From: Dehalococcoidales bacterium
GTDB taxonomy: Bacteria; Chloroflexota; Dehalococcoidia; Dehalococcoidales; GCA-2688105
Assembly: GCA_030640255.1 (NCBI GenBank)
Contig: DAOWJS010000103.1
Span: 1 to 33,203, forward strand
DNA length: 33,203 nt
Reading direction: 5' to 3'
Shown here: piece by piece, positions 20,826 to 31,142 of the stretch
Layout of the letters: every line of letters starts with the position of its first letter
How positions within the stretch are numbered: the stretch's first letter is position 1
Made by a program: the position numbers and the translations under genes
Notes under the pieces: generated by a model
What the model saw: only the letters and a program-made list of their open reading frames with translations
What the model was told of the DNA's origin: nothing
Databases searched by the model: none

Positions 20826-21249
20826 ATTAACCTCACCCCTTTAGATTTTTATTAGGTAACCCCATCCCCTTTATCCTTGCCAAAGCAGGCAAGGACTTTA
20901 TCCCCTTCATTCGTGAAATTATAAACTCTAATTTCTAAATCCTAAACAAATTCAAAATTCAAATCCCTAAAGTCTAGAATTTAGTATTTAGTATTTTTAT
21001 TAAATAGGGGCTCCGCCCCTCTAACACCCCTGACTCTTACTCTTGAACAGGGGCTTCGCCTCCCTTTGACTCTCCTTAAAAGGAGAGGGGAAGAGTTTTT
21101 AGCAAAGGGATTTAAAGGGGCGAAGCCCCTTTAAGAATTTCTCTTCCCTCTCCCCTTATGAAGGGGAGAGGGATAAAGGGTGAGGGGTTGTTAAACAATC
21201 TTTTATTAAGGGAAGGGGGGGCAGGGGGATAGGTTGCTAAACAACCTAG
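20826..21249. repeat. Composite GC-rich palindromic (REP/BIME-like) repeat, copy 1, with AT-rich heptamer module and a mini-palindrome insertion
   Basis: Hairpins AGGGGCTCCGCCCCT (21006-21020), TTAAAGGGGCGAAGCCCCTTTAA (21112-21134) and CCCTCTCCCC-TTATGAA-GGGGAGAGGG; GGGATAAAGGGGTGAGG end motif. Confidence 0.85.
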
Positions 21250-21262
21250 ATAGCAAGCCTTC

Positions 21263-21291
21263 TTGATTTTACCTTCAGCATAAGATATACT
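21263..21291 (+). promoter_or_regulatory. Sigma70-type promoter for the rpsB operon
   Basis: TTGATT-17 nt-TATACT; TATACTTG occurs twice in tandem. Confidence 0.6.
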
Positions 21292-21349
21292 TGTATACTT
21301 GTTAACAGATTTATTAAACAACAATTAATCATAAGGAAGGGATTCAAGA

Positions 21350-22132
21350 TTGCCAAATAGAGTTACTATTAAGGACCTTTTAGAATCTGGTGCCCACTTT
21401 GGGCATCAGACCAGTCGCTGGCATCCTCGTATGAAGAGCTACATTTTCACTAAGCGCAACGGTATTCATATTATTGACCTAGAACAAACCGTCAGCATGT
21501 TAGACAAGGCTTGCGACTTTATCCAGCAAGTAGTAGAGGAGGGCGGCACTATCCTTTTTGTCGGCACTAAAAAGCAAGCCCAGGAAACTATTGAGGAAGA
21601 GGCTAATCGCTGTGGTATGTATTATGTCAACCAACGTTGGCTGGGAGGAGTGCTGACTAACTTTGCCACTATCCAAGCCCGTATTGACTATCTCGTCCGC
21701 TTGGAGGACCAGCAAACTAGAGGGGAATTTGACTGCCTACCTAAAAAGGAAGCCCTAAAACTAGGGGAGAAAATCTCACGCCTTAATCATCAGATGGGTG
21801 GTTTCAAAGAGATGACCAGCCTGCCCGATGCTCTATTCATTGTTGACCCTACCAAGGAAAGGATTGCTCTAGCTGAAGCCAAGCGTACAGGAATACCAGT
21901 GGTAGCTATAGTAGATACTAATTGTAACCCCGACGATATAGACCACCCCATTCCCGCCAACGACGATGCTATTAGAGCCATAAAACTGATATGTAATAAA
22001 GTTGCTGATGCCGTTATTGAAGGCAAAACCGGTGAGGTAGTGATTCCGACAGAGGAAGGTGAGGAAAGGGGTCTAGAGGAACTTAAAGTTACCGAGACTA
22101 CCGAACCTGCTACTTTCACCCCGAATGAATAA
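21350..22132 (+). CDS. rpsB: 30S ribosomal protein S2
   Basis: [46 protein letters not shown] start. Confidence 0.98.
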
Positions 22133-22152
22133 TAAAAACAGAGAGGGAGAAG

Positions 22153-22656
22153 TTGAAAATTCCAACCACCAGAGTAAAGGAGCTAAGAGACCAGTCTGGA
22201 GCCGGGGTTATGGATTGTAGAAATGCCCTACTTGAAGCCGAGGGGGACATAGAAAAGGCGCTCGAAATTCTAAAGCAGAAAGGCTGTCTTCAGGCACAAA
22301 AGAAAGCAGAACGTGCCGCCACTCAAGGAGTGATTGAAGCTTACATCCATACCGGTGGGCAAATAGGAACCATGGTTGAAGTCAACTGTGAAACTGACTT
22401 TGTAGCTCATACTGACGAATTCAAGGAACTGGCTCACCACCTGGCAATGCAAGTAGCCGCCATGCCTCCCCACTTCGTCTCAAAAGAAGAAGTCCCCGAA
22501 GGAGCTGAGATAGAACCTCAATCAGCTTGCCTGCTTCTCCAGCCTTTCATTAAAAACCCCGACAAGACCATTCAGGATATTATAAACGAAACTATTGCCA
22601 AGGTGGGAGAGAATATCAAAGTAAGTAGATTTGCTCGATTTGAAGTAGGCAGTTAG
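22153..22656 (+). CDS. tsf: Elongation factor Ts (short form)
   Basis: VKELRDQSGAGVMDC, EVNCETDFVA, GENIKVSRFARF; follows rpsB. Confidence 0.97.
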   Translation: MKIPTTRVKELRDQSGAGVMDCRNALLEAEGDIEKALEILKQKGCLQAQKKAERAATQGVIEAYIHTGGQIGTMVEVNCETDFVAHTDEFKELAHHLAMQVAAMPPHFVSKEEVPEGAEIEPQSACLLLQPFIKNPDKTIQDIINETIAKVGENIKVSRFARFEVGS

Positions 22657-22668
22657 GTATTTAACAAA

Positions 22669-29206: not shown

Positions 29207-29208
29207 CT

Positions 29209-30210
29209 ATGGGAGACGGAACAGAACAAAATCCCTTTACCCGCGAAGATGTGCTCAAAGCCATAGAAGAAAATGGCGGAACAGCCGAAGGTCTTGACCT
29301 GTCTGGGGCAGTATTTGAGCAAGGGATTGACCTGCACGGTCTCGACCTTAAAGGGATTATTCTTAATGGAGTGGATTTGCCGAGCGCTCAGCTCCTTCAT
29401 GCTGACCTTCAGTATGCTAAATTTAACCCGCATAATTCCAAGCCTGCAAATCTTGAAGGCGCTGACCTGCGAGGTGCACATTTGGAATATGCCGAACTCA
29501 AGGGTGCTGAGCTTTGCGAAGCAATCTTTGGGTTATCAGGAGAGTTATCGCATATGAAAGCACACCTCGACAATACTGACCTTCGGGGTGCCAAGCTGTT
29601 TCGTGCTGATTTTAATGGTGTGTTTTTCTACGATACAAAACTTGAGGGCACTTTCATTCGTGGTGCTGATATTACCGAAGCTCATTTAGGTGACGCTGAT
29701 TGGGGTAACTATAAAATCGGAGAGGAGATAAAATATAAAGACTACTACAGTGCGGAACACCGATACAGGCAACTAAAGATATGGTATACCCAATCTGGAT
29801 ATTATGACATAGCGGGAGAGTTTTTCTTCAGGGAGATGGAAGCCAAAAGAAAGGGCGTAAAGTGGTGGCCACAACCTTGGCATAGGACATGGTCTGCGTT
29901 TCATTCTTTTGTTTCTGGCTATGGAGAAAGACCGCTAAGAGTTGTAAGATGGGGAGCGCTAGTTCTATTTGTGTCAGCTTTGCTGTACTTCTTTCTTCGT
30001 GGTGTAGCTCCATATAACCTGTCTTTGCAGGCTTTCCTAGGTAGCCTGTACTATAGCGCAGTGTCCTTCACCGCACTAGGATATGGTCCCTGGTTCACCG
30101 GCGCCTCGGTGCGCAGTTGGGTACAGGGTGCTGGATCAGCAGAAGCTTTCATCGGGGTTTTTACAATAGCGCTATTCTTGGTAACTTTTACCAGAAAAAT
30201 GAGAAGATAA
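29209..30210 (+). CDS. Pentapeptide-repeat protein fused to a two-TM K+-channel-like (Ion_trans_2) pore domain
   Basis: A(D/N)Lxx pentapeptide repeats (ANLEG ADLRG AHLEY AELKG AELCE), GYGERP motif, pore helix YYSAVSFTALGYG flanked by TM helices. Confidence 0.85.
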   Translation: MGDGTEQNPFTREDVLKAIEENGGTAEGLDLSGAVFEQGIDLHGLDLKGIILNGVDLPSAQLLHADLQYAKFNPHNSKPANLEGADLRGAHLEYAELKGAELCEAIFGLSGELSHMKAHLDNTDLRGAKLFRADFNGVFFYDTKLEGTFIRGADITEAHLGDADWGNYKIGEEIKYKDYYSAEHRYRQLKIWYTQSGYYDIAGEFFFREMEAKRKGVKWWPQPWHRTWSAFHSFVSGYGERPLRVVRWGALVLFVSALLYFFLRGVAPYNLSLQAFLGSLYYSAVSFTALGYGPWFTGASVRSWVQGAGSAEAFIGVFTIALFLVTFTRKMRR

Positions 30211-30320
30211 GGGGAAGCTTGAAGGGGCTTCGCCCCTTCATTAACCACCCTCCCCCTCCCTTACAAGGGAGGGGGATAAAGGGGGTAGGTTGCTAACAAA
30301 TTTATAAAGGGGGTGAGGTA
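30209..30320. repeat. GC-rich palindromic repeat, copy 4
   Basis: GGAAGCTTGAAGGGGCTTCGCCCCTTCA; TCCCCCTCCCTT-AC-AAGGGAGGGGGA; ends GGGGGTGAGGTAG. Confidence 0.88.
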
Positions 30321-30388
30321 GAAAGAATCTAAACTACTAGAATGAACCGGTTCAACATGGTTTAATACTTTGAGTTCTCGTATTGCCT
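30308..30388 (+). repeat. 81-bp duplicated upstream (promoter-like) module, copy A
   Basis: 67/81 ungapped identity by manual alignment to 31129-31209; contains extended -10-like TGGTTTAAT. Confidence 0.85.
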
Positions 30389-30439
30389 AAAGAAGCGGGT
30401 GGTAAACAATTATCAACTATTTAAGGAGGTTATGAGCTA

Positions 30440-30940
30440 ATGAAAAAAGCTATCGTGGTCGGGCTGGCATTAATTCTGATGCTTTCGTTTGTAATTTCAT
30501 GCGGGATACCTCAGGAAGAATATGACAAGGTAAGCAGTGACCTTGCCGCCGCTCAGACGCAGATTCAATCGCTGCAAGATGACTTGACCGCAGCTCAGGC
30601 ACAAGTTCAATCGCTGCAAGGTGATTTGGCTGAAGCCCAGGCACAAATTCAGCCCCTGCAAGACGACAAAGAGGCTGCCGAGGAAAAGCGTGCCCAAGCA
30701 TTGGCTTATGCCGAGTATTTGGATATACTTCTGTATTCACTTTTTGAGGAAGCTGGGCTTACTCCCCGCTTCGCATTTGAAGATGAAATTGATTGGATGA
30801 TAGAGCTAAAAACTAGAGCCGACGACATAGGAGATGCCGAGCTAAGTAATTACCTTAAGGAACTAGAGCAACGCAGTGAAGCAGCAATGGAGCGGATGTG
30901 GCAGTATTGCTTGGATAGAATAGAGAAAGCCCTAAAGTGA
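30440..30940 (+). CDS. Hypothetical lipoprotein with coiled-coil 14-aa tandem repeats
   Basis: SD AAGGAGG; signal peptide ending VISC; three 42-bp units at 30539-30664 (DLxxAQxQ[IV]QxLQ[DG]). Confidence 0.8.
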   Translation: MKKAIVVGLALILMLSFVISCGIPQEEYDKVSSDLAAAQTQIQSLQDDLTAAQAQVQSLQGDLAEAQAQIQPLQDDKEAAEEKRAQALAYAEYLDILLYSLFEEAGLTPRFAFEDEIDWMIELKTRADDIGDAELSNYLKELEQRSEAAMERMWQYCLDRIEKALK

Positions 30941-30953
30941 ACGGATTCTCATT

Positions 30954-31142
30954 GAGTTTTGCCTCTCTCTAGAATCTCTTCCTAATAGGGGTTTAAGGGG
31001 CGGAGCCCCTCTTGTAAAACCCTAAATCCTAAACCCTAAATCCTAAACCCTAGGGATTTGAATTTTGAGCTTGTTTAGTCCTTCACCTGTGAAGGATTAG
31101 AAATTAGAATTTGTGATTTCACCAAAAGAGGGGGTGAGCTAG
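30954..31142. repeat. Composite repeat, copy 5, with AT-rich heptamer module and a mini-palindrome insertion
   Basis: 30959-31010 closely matches 28037-28088 (…TCTCTCTA[A/G]AATCTCTTCC[C/T]AATAGGGGTTTAAGGGGCGGAGCCCCT); then the (AAA[T/C]CCT)n module, then AGGGGGTGAG. Confidence 0.85.

What the first reader, a model, noticed from the sequence alone, without database searches (positions are those of the whole stretch)
20826..31142. Family of composite GC-rich palindromic repeats repeatedly colonising a core housekeeping operon
Seen: five intergenic loci (before rpsB, uppS/cdsA, rseP/ispG, after the pentapeptide gene, before the 31235 gene) built from the same modules in varying order and orientation. 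Modules are AGGGGC-NNN-GCCCCT hairpins, longer CCCCCT(T/C)CC(C)TT...AAGG(G)AGGGGG stems, and a GGGATAAAGGGG(G)TGAGG end motif. Several hairpin cores read GCGAAGC or GCGGAGC on one strand. Known: d(GCGNAGC) is an exceptionally stable DNA mini-hairpin, and REP/BIME elements are ssDNA hairpins handled by HUH (RAYT) nucleases. Inference: a REP/BIME-like non-autonomous mobile family, possibly undescribed in this lineage and mobilised in trans. No transposase is present in the window. The G-runs could also form G-quadruplexes or RNA stability/attenuation structures inside the operon.
Basis: partly seen in the sequence, partly recalled or inferred. Interest (0 to 1): 0.7.

Follow-up and report, generated by a model that had tools for sequence, protein, structure and literature searches.

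The report
Mosaic hairpin repeats in Dehalococcoidales genomes
The five spots are copies of a short, non-coding, hairpin-rich repeat that has spread through the DNA between genes of uncultured Dehalococcoidia bacteria and some of their phages; it is a new family of a familiar kind of selfish DNA, and the enzyme that moves it is unknown.

Summary
AGGGGC-N3-GCCCCT occurs 128 times in this 0.96-Mb Dehalococcoidales MAG, against 0 for the reversed-pattern control. Repeat DNA covers 2.2% of the genome, and 98% of it is intergenic.

The usual unit is about 100-115 nt. It holds hairpin A (GGGGC-GNA-GCCCC), hairpin B (a 12-13-bp pyrimidine/purine stem) and a G-rich "cap" (ATAAAGGGGGTGAGGT...TAAACAATCTC). 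Units are stacked, nested and inverted into mosaics.

Filled and empty sites show insertion. rseP and ispG abut or overlap in 17 of 20 related loci and in two congeners. The sites before rpsB and between uppS and cdsA are also empty in those congeners.

The REP/RAYT reading fails on its enzyme. No Y1 transposase was found in this genome or in any high-copy relative. IS4/5, IS630, rve, Harbinger-type and TnpB families do not track copy number either.

New here:
- The cap can pair over 10 bases with the 16S 3' tail of relatives.
- It points at the downstream gene in 36 of 47 informative cases.
- In phage contigs it lies 4-5 nt before start codons in 9 of 16 matches.

This scan had already noted the family elsewhere in this genome and in other genomes. 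Verdict: a new member of a known kind, of moderate interest.

The parts
20816..20913 (-). Two reverse-oriented caps (cores 20831-20839 and 20860-20869) plus a small hairpin. They face the divergent gene 20745-20395 and abut its -35 box.
   Evidence: 94-98% identical to copies on C12, C35 and C8
20902..20996 (.). AT-rich module with heptad-like repeats; an inverted copy of 31014-31128.
   Evidence: (I1: 55 nt, 84% complementary; I3)
21003..21066 (.). Two hairpin-A modules, with cores 21007-21019 and 21050-21062; the second has one broken pair.
21111..21200 (+). Forward A-B-cap unit: A 21117-21129 (GCGAAGC), B 21138-21173, cap 21174-21200. It contains a G-quadruplex-type motif at 21163-21187.
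21205..21247 (+). Extra forward cap that closes the 430-nt block just upstream of the host rpsB promoter (TTGATT-17-TATACT, 21263-21291).
24762..24851 (-). Reverse-oriented, decayed unit between uppS and cdsA: cap 24762-24785, B 24791-24820, A 24835-24847.
   Evidence: (z -1.5); absent from G002 and G003
27910..27950 (.). Left-end motif plus hairpin A (27932-27944), directly after the rseP stop codon.
27959..28050 (-). Reverse-oriented unit: cap 27959-27982, B 27986-28017, A 28031-28043.
   Evidence: the same module order occurs in phage contig locus L200:274-492
28062..28157 (+). Forward A-B-cap unit: A 28075-28087 (GCGGAGC), B 28099-28130, cap 28131-28157. It ends 2 nt before the ispG start codon at 28160.
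30213..30303 (+). Forward unit after the pentapeptide-repeat gene: A 30224-30236 (flipped loop TTC), B 30248-30276, cap 30277-30303.
   Evidence: present in all four genomes of the genus
30306..30330 (+). Solo forward cap that opens the 81-nt duplicated stretch 30308-30388.
   Evidence: (D2)
30958..31013 (.). Module remnant plus hairpin A (30997-31009); 94% identical to 28036-28088.
   Evidence: (D6)
31014..31128 (.). AT-rich heptad module; inverted partner of 20902-20996.
31127..31150 (+). Solo forward cap that opens the second copy of the duplicated stretch (31129-31209), upstream of the gene at 31235.

Best explanation
The five loci are members of a high-copy family of short, non-coding, non-autonomous mobile repeats of Dehalococcoidia.

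Anatomy. The basic unit is asymmetric and about 100-115 nt long. It runs: a short A/T-rich left end with GGG(T/A)AG or GGGAGT; hairpin A (GGGGC-GNA-GCCCC, with a covarying outer stem); about 10 nt of spacer; hairpin B (a 12-13-bp polypyrimidine/polypurine stem); and a cap, ATAAAGGGGGTGAGGT followed by TGATAAACAATCTC. Units and single modules have inserted into A/T-rich intergenic DNA, into one another and, rarely, in frame into genes. This produces mosaics like those in the window.

Shown: genome-wide spread, restriction to intergenic DNA, insertion polymorphism between congeners, maintained hairpin pairing, and presence in phage contigs.

Inferred:
(1) Movement depends on an enzyme supplied in trans. 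It is not a RAYT and not one of the common DDE or TnpB transposases. It could be phage-borne or missing from these assemblies.
(2) Copies survive inside operons mainly in the orientation in which the transcript carries the cap as a Shine-Dalgarno mimic pointing at the next gene. The reverse orientation would place an anti-SD-like CCUCACCCCC on the mRNA.
(3) The GNA loop on the G-rich strand means that a single strand, RNA or ssDNA, is the form under constraint.
For: Abundance:
- 128 AGGGGC-N3-GCCCCT sites against 0 for the control.
- 142 GGGGC/GCCCC cores plus 45 compensated GAGGC/GCCTC cores, against 16 half-changed ones.
- At least 98 hairpin-B stems with at most 1 mismatch, in 4 main covarying arm classes; shuffled arm pairing gives 24, maximum 36.

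Location:
- 130 of 142 cores lie outside crude ORFs.
- 20,447 of 20,907 repeat bases are intergenic, and 91 of 499 intergenic regions are occupied.

Insertion:
- The rseP/ispG site is filled in 3 of 20 related loci and empty in 17. It is empty in G002 and G003.
- Sites 1 and 2 are empty in G002 and G003.
- 25 repeat-bearing indels of 40 nt or more were found in 52 collinear junctions against 628 kb of G001 and 140 kb of G003. One is a clean 108-nt unit in a naive site.
- An in-frame insert in the tilS linker is present in 4 of 6 genomes compared and absent in 2.

Asymmetry: of 123 repeat blocks, 79 have an outward-facing cap at one end, 12 at both ends and 32 at neither; only 2 have an inward-facing cap.

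Orientation:
- In co-directional contexts the cap is forward in 36 cases and reverse in 11.
- It follows the gene strand rather than the contig's GC skew: 23/10 and 13/1.
- In the closed genome G175 the motif strand changes in about 16 blocks.

Cap as SD mimic:
- The 16S genes of G003, G006 and G012 end in GGATCACCTCCTT.
- In viral contigs the cap lies 4-5 nt before a start codon in 9 of 16 matches. The downstream genes include a tail fibre, phrog_399 and phrog_644.

Spread:
- 26 of 41 genomes of the order have the hairpin-A pattern.
- 68 of 301 genomes of the class have the B/cap motif.
- The same units occur in other families, G032 and G023.
Against: - No mobilising enzyme was found.
- No target-site duplication could be established. 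Terminal inverted similarity is clear in only a few units: 4 of 46 by a strict test.
- Copies are diverged. The median identity of 1958 internal pairs is 83%, 2 reach 98% or more and none is identical. Current activity is therefore not shown.
- The module sits at the same position upstream of a 109-aa gene in diverged phages. Together with the orientation bias, this could mean a selected regulatory role rather than selfish spread.
- Only about 9 of 88 host caps lie within SD range of a start codon, and a random-position control for that count was not informative.
- Gene calls were crude ORFs, the genome is a 103-contig MAG, and repeats sit at contig ends, so copy numbers are minima.
Confidence: 0.68

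Rival explanations
1. REP/BIME elements in the strict sense: ssDNA hairpins cut and pasted by a RAYT (Y1/HUH) transposase.
For: - The elements are mosaics of palindromic units, with asymmetric ends and no evident TSD.
- A 5' tag lies 10-12 nt before hairpin A, and it is GTAG in 39 of 194 cases.
- GCGNAGC is an extraordinarily stable DNA mini-hairpin (PMC13037366; abstract seen in the listing).
- REPtrons can be lost from some species, and CGTC REPs lack a dedicated transposase (PMC3733652; passages read).
Against: - PF01797 gives 0 hits in this genome.
- It hits only 4 of 41 genomes of the order (G007, G009, G028, G040), which carry 0, 10, 0 and 0 copies.
- It gives 0 hits in three single-contig genomes with 41-98 copies of the related family.
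- The tag is GAGT (79) or GAAG (46) more often than GTAG, and never CGTC.
- Orientation follows genes, not a two-replichore pattern.
Confidence: 0.07
2. A classical TIR-bounded MITE derived from a DDE insertion sequence (for example IS5-like), moved by that transposase with a short A/T target duplication.
For: - Conservation of the cap stops sharply at GAGATTGTTTA..., and A/T follows just outside it.
- Some units carry the same roughly 14 nt inverted at both ends (G023 unit; 4 of 46).
- Some blocks are bounded by two outward-facing caps (12 of 123).
- TTA/TAA-like repeats flank a few inserts.
- Earlier scan notes report IS5-type MITEs in other Dehalococcoidia genomes. This is a lead only.
Against: - 79 of 123 blocks carry a cap at one end only.
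- A 2-nt flank match was seen in only 3 of 6 and 2 of 3 cases, and a 3-nt match in at most 1 of 6 and 0 of 3.
- PF01609 hits 7 of 41 genomes, PF13340 2 of 41, PF13358 1 of 41 and PF13359 1 of 41; rve hits 23 of 41. None of the five families hits G000, G032, G036, G023 or G031; G001 has only the rve hit checked below.
- The IS copies that were inspected have unrelated ends.
Confidence: 0.15
3. Chiefly a functional expression cassette (stabilising or insulating hairpins plus a strong ribosome-binding site) of phage origin. It would be copied between loci by recombination rather than by transposition, as with the PeSL promoter-terminator cassettes of T4-type phages.
For: - In 9 of 16 phage matches the cap is the ribosome-binding site of a structural gene.
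- The module sits at the same position in diverged phages, with some compensatory stem changes: 2 of 22 pairs.
- Hosts show a gene-linked orientation bias.
- In the window the ispG start lies 2 nt after a cap, where relatives use rseP/ispG overlap.
- Variable genes lie next to caps, and an 81-nt direct duplication that starts with a cap flanks the gene 30440-30940.
- The PeSL papers PMC2839356 and PMC4122927 were seen only in a search listing.
Against: - Both orientations occur inside one operon.
- Copies decay without visible consequence, as at uppS/cdsA, which is also degenerate in G001.
- Congeners lack the copies at three window sites.
- One copy is translated inside tilS.
- A complete unit has entered a naive, non-homologous site.
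- Only about 10% of host caps are within SD range of a start codon.
- The phage matches were retrieved with the cap motif itself.
Confidence: 0.18

Closest known systems
REP/BIME elements with RAYT transposases (Enterobacteria, Pseudomonas, Stenotrophomonas; Di Nocera et al. 2013, PMC3733652)
   Same: Both are short GC-rich palindromic units, repeated hundreds of times and almost only between genes. Both are combined with other conserved motifs into mosaics in both orientations. Both are asymmetric and lack an evident target duplication. Both have occasional copies inside genes.
   Different: There is no sequence relationship. The GTAG tag is present in only 20% of copies. No Y1/RAYT gene was found in any high-copy genome. 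The unit has two different hairpins plus an SD-like cap. Orientation is tied to the downstream gene start, whereas REPs lie mostly downstream of genes (abstract passage of PMC3733652).
Bacterial MITEs inside transcription units, e.g. Correia/NEMIS of Neisseria, ERIC, RUP and MIRU
   Same: They are small, non-coding and high in copy number, and they show insertion polymorphism. They are co-transcribed with neighbouring genes and can bring expression signals. MIRUs sit between cistrons of operons.
   Different: Clear long TIRs and a defined TSD are missing here. No parent IS was found. The composition is modular and shuffled rather than uniform.
Rickettsia palindromic elements and the CGTC-tagged REP superfamily (PMC3733652)
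   Same: Hairpin repeats are tolerated in frame inside essential genes, as in the tilS linker here. There is apparently no dedicated transposase.
   Different: There is no CGTC tag (0 of 194). Only one in-frame case was verified here. The family is overwhelmingly intergenic.
PeSL promoter-stem-loop cassettes of T4-type phages (PMC2839356, PMC4122927; search listing only)
   Same: They are composite regulatory motifs repeated between genes of phage genomes, lie next to variable genes, and are thought to shuffle genes by recombination.
   Different: PeSLs combine a promoter with a terminator. Here the module is two hairpins plus a ribosome-binding site, it is shared with host chromosomes at about 100 copies, and shuffling through it is not shown.

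Membership tests
REP/REPIN-RAYT system | A RAYT (Y1/HUH, PF01797) gene in the genome, usually flanked by the repeats | tested here: not met
   0 hits in G000. Hits in 4 of 41 genomes of the order, none high in copy number. 0 hits in the closed genomes G175, G059 and G208.
REP/REPIN-RAYT system | A conserved GTAG (or CGTC) tetranucleotide at one end of the palindrome | tested here: not met
   GTAG beside 39 of 194 hairpins, GAGT 79, GAAG 46, CGTC 0.
REP/REPIN-RAYT system | Short imperfect palindromes, high in copy number and extragenic | tested here: met
BIME (mosaic element) | Palindromic units combined with other conserved motifs in varying order and orientation | tested here: met
   This is a resemblance in architecture only; no homology to enterobacterial BIMEs was tested.
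MITE | Small, non-coding, multi-copy, with presence/absence polymorphism | tested here: met
MITE | Terminal inverted repeats at both ends | tested here: inconclusive
   The cap terminus is sharply defined. A matching inverted left end was seen in 4 of 46 units and in a G023 unit. 79 of 123 blocks have a cap at one end only.
MITE | Target-site duplication of fixed length | tested here: inconclusive
   Flanks are A/T-rich. A 2-nt match was seen in 3 of 6 and 2 of 3 cases, and no consistent 3-5-nt repeat. A few TTA/TAA candidates were seen.
MITE | An autonomous IS with the same ends | tested here: not met
   PF01609, PF13340, PF13358, PF13359, PF00665 and PF07282 do not co-occur with high copy number. 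The IS ends that were inspected are unrelated. ISfinder was not available.
Rfam RNA families | A match at gathering score | tested here: not met
   The best matches had E 0.2 and 0.51, far below gathering score.
Intrinsic terminators | A GC-rich stem followed by a T-run, enriched over shuffles | tested here: not met
   16 found against 12.8 +/- 4.1 in shuffles for window 20300-31700. Some AGA/TCT-class copies elsewhere do have T-runs.

The most novel reading that the evidence does not exclude
The unit is a portable intercistronic expression cassette: two protective hairpins plus a ribosome-binding site with 10-base complementarity to the 16S tail. It circulates between Dehalococcoidia phages and their hosts without a dedicated transposase, for example through a phage-encoded or host recombination or replication activity acting on the hairpins. 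Because it brings its own translation start signal, it can split overlapping, translationally coupled genes such as rseP and ispG without silencing the downstream one. It may also serve as portable homology at which genes are swapped in and out. The pentapeptide-repeat gene, the gene at 30440-30940 and the variable slots seen in sister genomes would be examples.
Probability: 0.2. Interest if true: 0.75.

Novelty: new member of a known kind. Interest (0 to 1): 0.45.

Why it matters
Dehalococcoidia have some of the smallest free-living genomes, yet here about 13% of the crude intergenic DNA is repeat. That raises the question of how such genomes tolerate or use this DNA.

Practical consequences:
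- The repeats break metagenome assemblies. Contigs of this MAG start or end in them, and Logan unitigs stop at them.
- They mislead gene callers. The longest cdsA ORF starts inside a repeat.
- They could serve as lineage or phage-host markers, because the same mosaic occurs in a phage contig.

If the cap really acts as a mobile ribosome-binding site, the family would show how an element can colonise essential operons without polar damage. If no transposase exists, it would add to the open question, raised for CGTC REPs, of how such hairpin repeats multiply.

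Tried and rejected
- RAYT/Y1 search: negative.
- Searches for IS4/5, DUF4096, IS630, rve, TnpB and DDE_Tnp_4: none tracks copy number. The ends of the IS copies found are unrelated to the cap.
- TSD search with strict cap or TIR patterns: only 6 and 3 usable elements, no consistent duplication.
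- Rfam: nothing near gathering score.
- Terminator and promoter scan: not enriched.
- RNA evidence: no RNA holder was listed among 20 runs.
- Laying four DNA runs as contigs showed only depth spikes over the repeat bins and unitigs stopping at repeats. One single-contig joint, 27878->28133 in X4, has a short side and an unknown middle, and I do not count it.
111 of the 115 lack B or cap nearby and their loops are diverse. Hairpin A alone is therefore not family-specific outside the lineage.
- Count of caps within 2-12 nt of a long ORF start: 13 of 142 loose matches, no different from random positions (5-16). The control was poor because most random positions lie inside ORFs.
- Outer-TIR pattern in G175: 2 weak matches. 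The g60 family shares only the B-plus-cap module.
- No 16S gene was found in this MAG or in the fetched parts of relatives, so the 16S tail was taken from G003, G006 and G012.
-, a viral scan with TilS, was a mistaken and useless call.
- One search failed on strand; it was corrected.
- ISfinder and Repbase could not be consulted.
- The supplements of PMC3733652, which list species and REPtrons, were not opened. They may name the Chloroflexi species that carry GTAG REPs.

Full report
WHAT IS THERE

The window is a whole 33.2-kb contig of a 965-kb, 103-contig MAG that is 93% complete. Its relatives are named Dehalococcoidales or Dehalococcoidia MAGs.

They are rpsB, tsf, pyrH-type kinase, frr, uppS, cdsA, dxr, rseP (M50 plus PDZ), ispG, a pentapeptide-repeat protein, a coiled-coil protein, a small ORF and proS. 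None of the 35 window ORFs scanned matches a transposase, recombinase or nuclease family.

Between 20816 and 31150 the five intergenic loci hold 9 hairpin-A cores, 5 hairpin-B stems, 6 forward cap cores and 4 reverse cap cores. There are also two inverted copies of an AT-rich heptad module.

IS IT MORE THAN CHANCE?

Yes.
- AGGGGC-N3-GCCCCT occurs at 128 sites in the genome. The same pattern read backwards gives 0.
- GGGGC-N3-GCCCC occurs 142 times. The loops are TTC 42, GAA 35, TTT 12, GGA 10, AAA 10, GTA 9, TCC 9, TAC 5 and others 10.
- The most frequent 11-mers of the genome all belong to these modules.
- Bases with at least 5 matches elsewhere total 20,907, or 2.17% of the genome. Of these, 20,447 lie in crude intergenic DNA, which is 13.3% of that DNA. 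In all, 91 of 499 intergenic regions are occupied.
- 130 of 142 cores lie outside crude ORFs.
- Many contigs begin or end inside a repeat, so these counts are minima.

ANATOMY

Forty-six copies share one order: hairpin A, about 10 nt of spacer, hairpin B, then ATAAAGGGGGTGAGGT followed by TGATAAACAATCTC.

In that orientation the hairpin-A loop is GAA 26, AAA 5, GTA 3 and GGA 2, against TTC 8 and others 2. GCGNAGC therefore lies mostly on the G-rich strand.

The stems are maintained:
- GGGGC/GCCCC occurs 142 times and the doubly changed GAGGC/GCCTC 45 times, against 16 half-changed hybrids.
- At least 98 hairpin-B stems have at most one mismatch and fall in four main arm classes. Shuffled arm pairing gives 24 on average.
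- These counts tally copies, not independent events.

Conservation of the cap stops sharply about 15 nt beyond CCTCACCCC, and A/T lies just outside it.

Of 123 repeat blocks away from contig ends, 79 have an outward-facing cap at one end, 12 at both ends and 32 at neither. Only 2 have an inward-facing cap. The element is therefore basically asymmetric. A matching inverted left end is clear in only 4 of 46 units and in one G023 unit.

The hairpins fold on both strands with z-scores of -4.3 to -6.4. The uppS/cdsA copy has decayed, with z -1.5.

MOBILITY

rseP and ispG abut or overlap in 17 of 20 related loci. The gap is filled with differing module sets in the 3 closest loci. Within the genus the site is filled in the window and in G001, and empty in G002 and G003.

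The block before rpsB and the unit between uppS and cdsA are also absent from G002 and G003. The host promoters on either side of the rpsB block are conserved there. The unit after the pentapeptide-repeat gene is present in all four genomes.

I compared this genome with 628 kb of G001 and 140 kb of G003. Fifty-two collinear junctions gave 25 repeat-bearing indels of 40 nt or more, 19 as extra DNA here and 6 as extra DNA in the relative. One is a clean 108-nt unit in an otherwise intact site. Several are insertions inside other units.

Copies are not young. Among 1958 internal pairs of 80 nt or more, the median identity is 83%, 29 reach 95%, 2 reach 98% and none is identical.

No consistent target duplication emerged.

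WHO MOVES THEM?

Not a RAYT.
- PF01797 gives 0 hits here.
- It hits 4 of 41 genomes of the order, which carry 0, 10, 0 and 0 copies.
- It gives 0 hits in three single-contig genomes of another order that carry 41-98 copies of a related family.
- The GTAG tag is found beside 39 of 194 hairpins. GAGT (79) and GAAG (46) are commoner, and CGTC is absent.

The other transposase families searched across the same 41 genomes were:
- PF01609: 7 of 41.
- PF13340: 2 of 41.
- PF13358: 1 of 41.
- PF13359: 1 of 41.
- PF07282: 0 over the cut-off.
- rve: 23 of 41.

All of these are missing from G000, G032, G036, G023 and G031. The IS copies that I inspected have unrelated ends. MAGs often lose IS copies, so this is absence in what was assembled, except for the closed genomes.

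DISTRIBUTION

The hairpin-A pattern is found in 26 of 41 genomes of the order, with 0 to 128 copies. The B/cap motif, allowing up to 2 mismatches, is found in 68 of 301 genomes of the class. It reaches about 100 copies in genus g60.

In g60 only the B-plus-cap module is shared. Hairpin A is a different, variable hairpin. G032 and G023, from other families of the order, carry the same units as this genome.

ORIENTATION AND THE CAP

Of 96 GGGGGTGAGG sites, 12 fall in crude ORFs. In co-directional contexts 36 point with the genes and 11 against. Twelve lie between divergent genes and 4 between convergent genes.

The bias follows the gene strand, not the contig's GC skew. It is 23 forward to 10 reverse where genes lie on the G>C strand, and 13 to 1 where they do not. 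In the closed genome G175 the motif strand changes in about 16 blocks rather than two.

The 16S genes of G003, G006 and G012 end in GGATCACCTCCTT. By inspection, AAGGGGGTGA in the cap can pair with that tail over 10 contiguous bases, one of them a G-U pair.

Genes of this genome mostly use AGGAG, GGAGG or GAGGT upstream of their starts.

PHAGES

A 25-nt B/cap probe found 16 stretches in 15 IMG/VR contigs. In 9 of the 16, GGGGGTGAGG ends 4-5 nt before a start codon. Downstream genes include a tail-fibre protein (E 1e-17), phrog_644 (E 8e-37) and phrog_399, a head-and-packaging structural protein.

The module sits upstream of the same 109-aa gene in diverged contigs, with a few compensatory stem changes: 2 of 22 pairs. 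One contig (L200:274-492) carries the same module order as window 27959-28157.

Hairpin A alone is not diagnostic in viruses. Of 115 matches, 111 lack B or cap nearby.

READING

The best-supported account is a non-autonomous mobile repeat family. In architecture it is REP/BIME-like: hairpin modules, mosaics, asymmetric ends and no TSD. In behaviour it is MITE-like: insertion polymorphism and nesting. The enzyme that moves it is unknown.

The orientation bias and the phage data suggest that copies persist where the transcript carries the cap as a ribosome-binding-site mimic facing the next gene. This part is inference.

Three rivals remain:
- A strict RAYT system. It is disfavoured.
- A DDE-derived TIR MITE. 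It is possible but lacks TIR, TSD and transposase support.
- A recombination-spread regulatory cassette of phage origin. It is not excluded.

KNOWN OR NEW?

Four full-text searches found no description of such repeats in Dehalococcoidia or Chloroflexi. The one exception is a single statement that GTAG repeats occur in the phylum Chloroflexi (passages of PMC3733652 read, supplements not opened).

This scan had already noted the family on other pieces of this genome (e1-4060655, e1-4060652) and similar families in other Dehalococcoidia genomes.

The kind of element is well known, and the family appears undescribed in print. The link to the 16S tail, the gene-linked orientation, the sharing with phages and the absence of any usual transposase are the points worth following.

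Noticed in passing
L211:1379-1474 (= G000:C1:4678-4773): About 96 nt of repeat (hairpin A, hairpin B and cap) is translated in frame in the linker between the substrate-binding and C-terminal domains of TilS. Module-derived inserts are present in G000, G001, G002 and G032 and absent from G003 and G006, with an extra nested unit in G000 and G001.
   Followed up: partly
window 29209-31234: G003 lacks both the pentapeptide-repeat gene (29209-30210) and the coiled-coil gene (30440-30940). G002 lacks the first of these. The second gene plus its repeats lies between two direct copies of an 81-nt stretch (30308-30388 and 31129-31209, 83% identical), each of which starts with a cap. This looks like a cassette insertion by recombination at the duplicated leader.
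   Followed up: partly
window 24805-24892: The longest cdsA ORF starts at 24805, inside the repeat. The start conserved in G002 and G003 is the ATG at 24890, so automatic annotation would add about 28 spurious codons.
   Followed up: partly
window 20902-20996 and 31014-31128: Inverted copies of an AT-rich heptad-repeat module (55-nt core, 84% complementary) bracket the whole rpsB-to-ispG gene block at a distance of 10 kb. They are a possible substrate for inversion.
   Followed up: no
L167-L178 (G175, closed genome of another order): A related family shares only hairpin B plus GGGGATAAAGGGGGTGAGG. Upstream it has a long hairpin that differs between copies while staying paired. Downstream it has a G/C-rich hairpin, often followed by a TTGAC box.
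   Followed up: partly
L191, L192 (G032); L199, L200, L206, L207 (phage contigs): Some hairpin-B copies carry an extra insert of about 25-30 nt in the loop (catgcaaggaata...-type). This looks like a second small element that lands in hairpin loops.
   Followed up: no
G000:C24:11970 (not fetched as a locus): A hairpin-A core lies in frame near the N-terminus of a 975-aa FGAM-synthase-like ORF, giving the residues ...GGLEGRSPSNK.... It may be another translated copy.
   Followed up: no
G000:C69:3741-4781 vs G001:C1:14371-15626; G000:C56:7446-8351 vs G003:C2:105216-105833: Directly downstream of a shared cap, sister genomes carry entirely different genes before synteny resumes. These are variable gene slots next to the repeats.
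   Followed up: no
window 30538-30663: Three tandem 42-nt repeats (69-79% identical) lie inside the coiled-coil gene 30440-30940.
   Followed up: no
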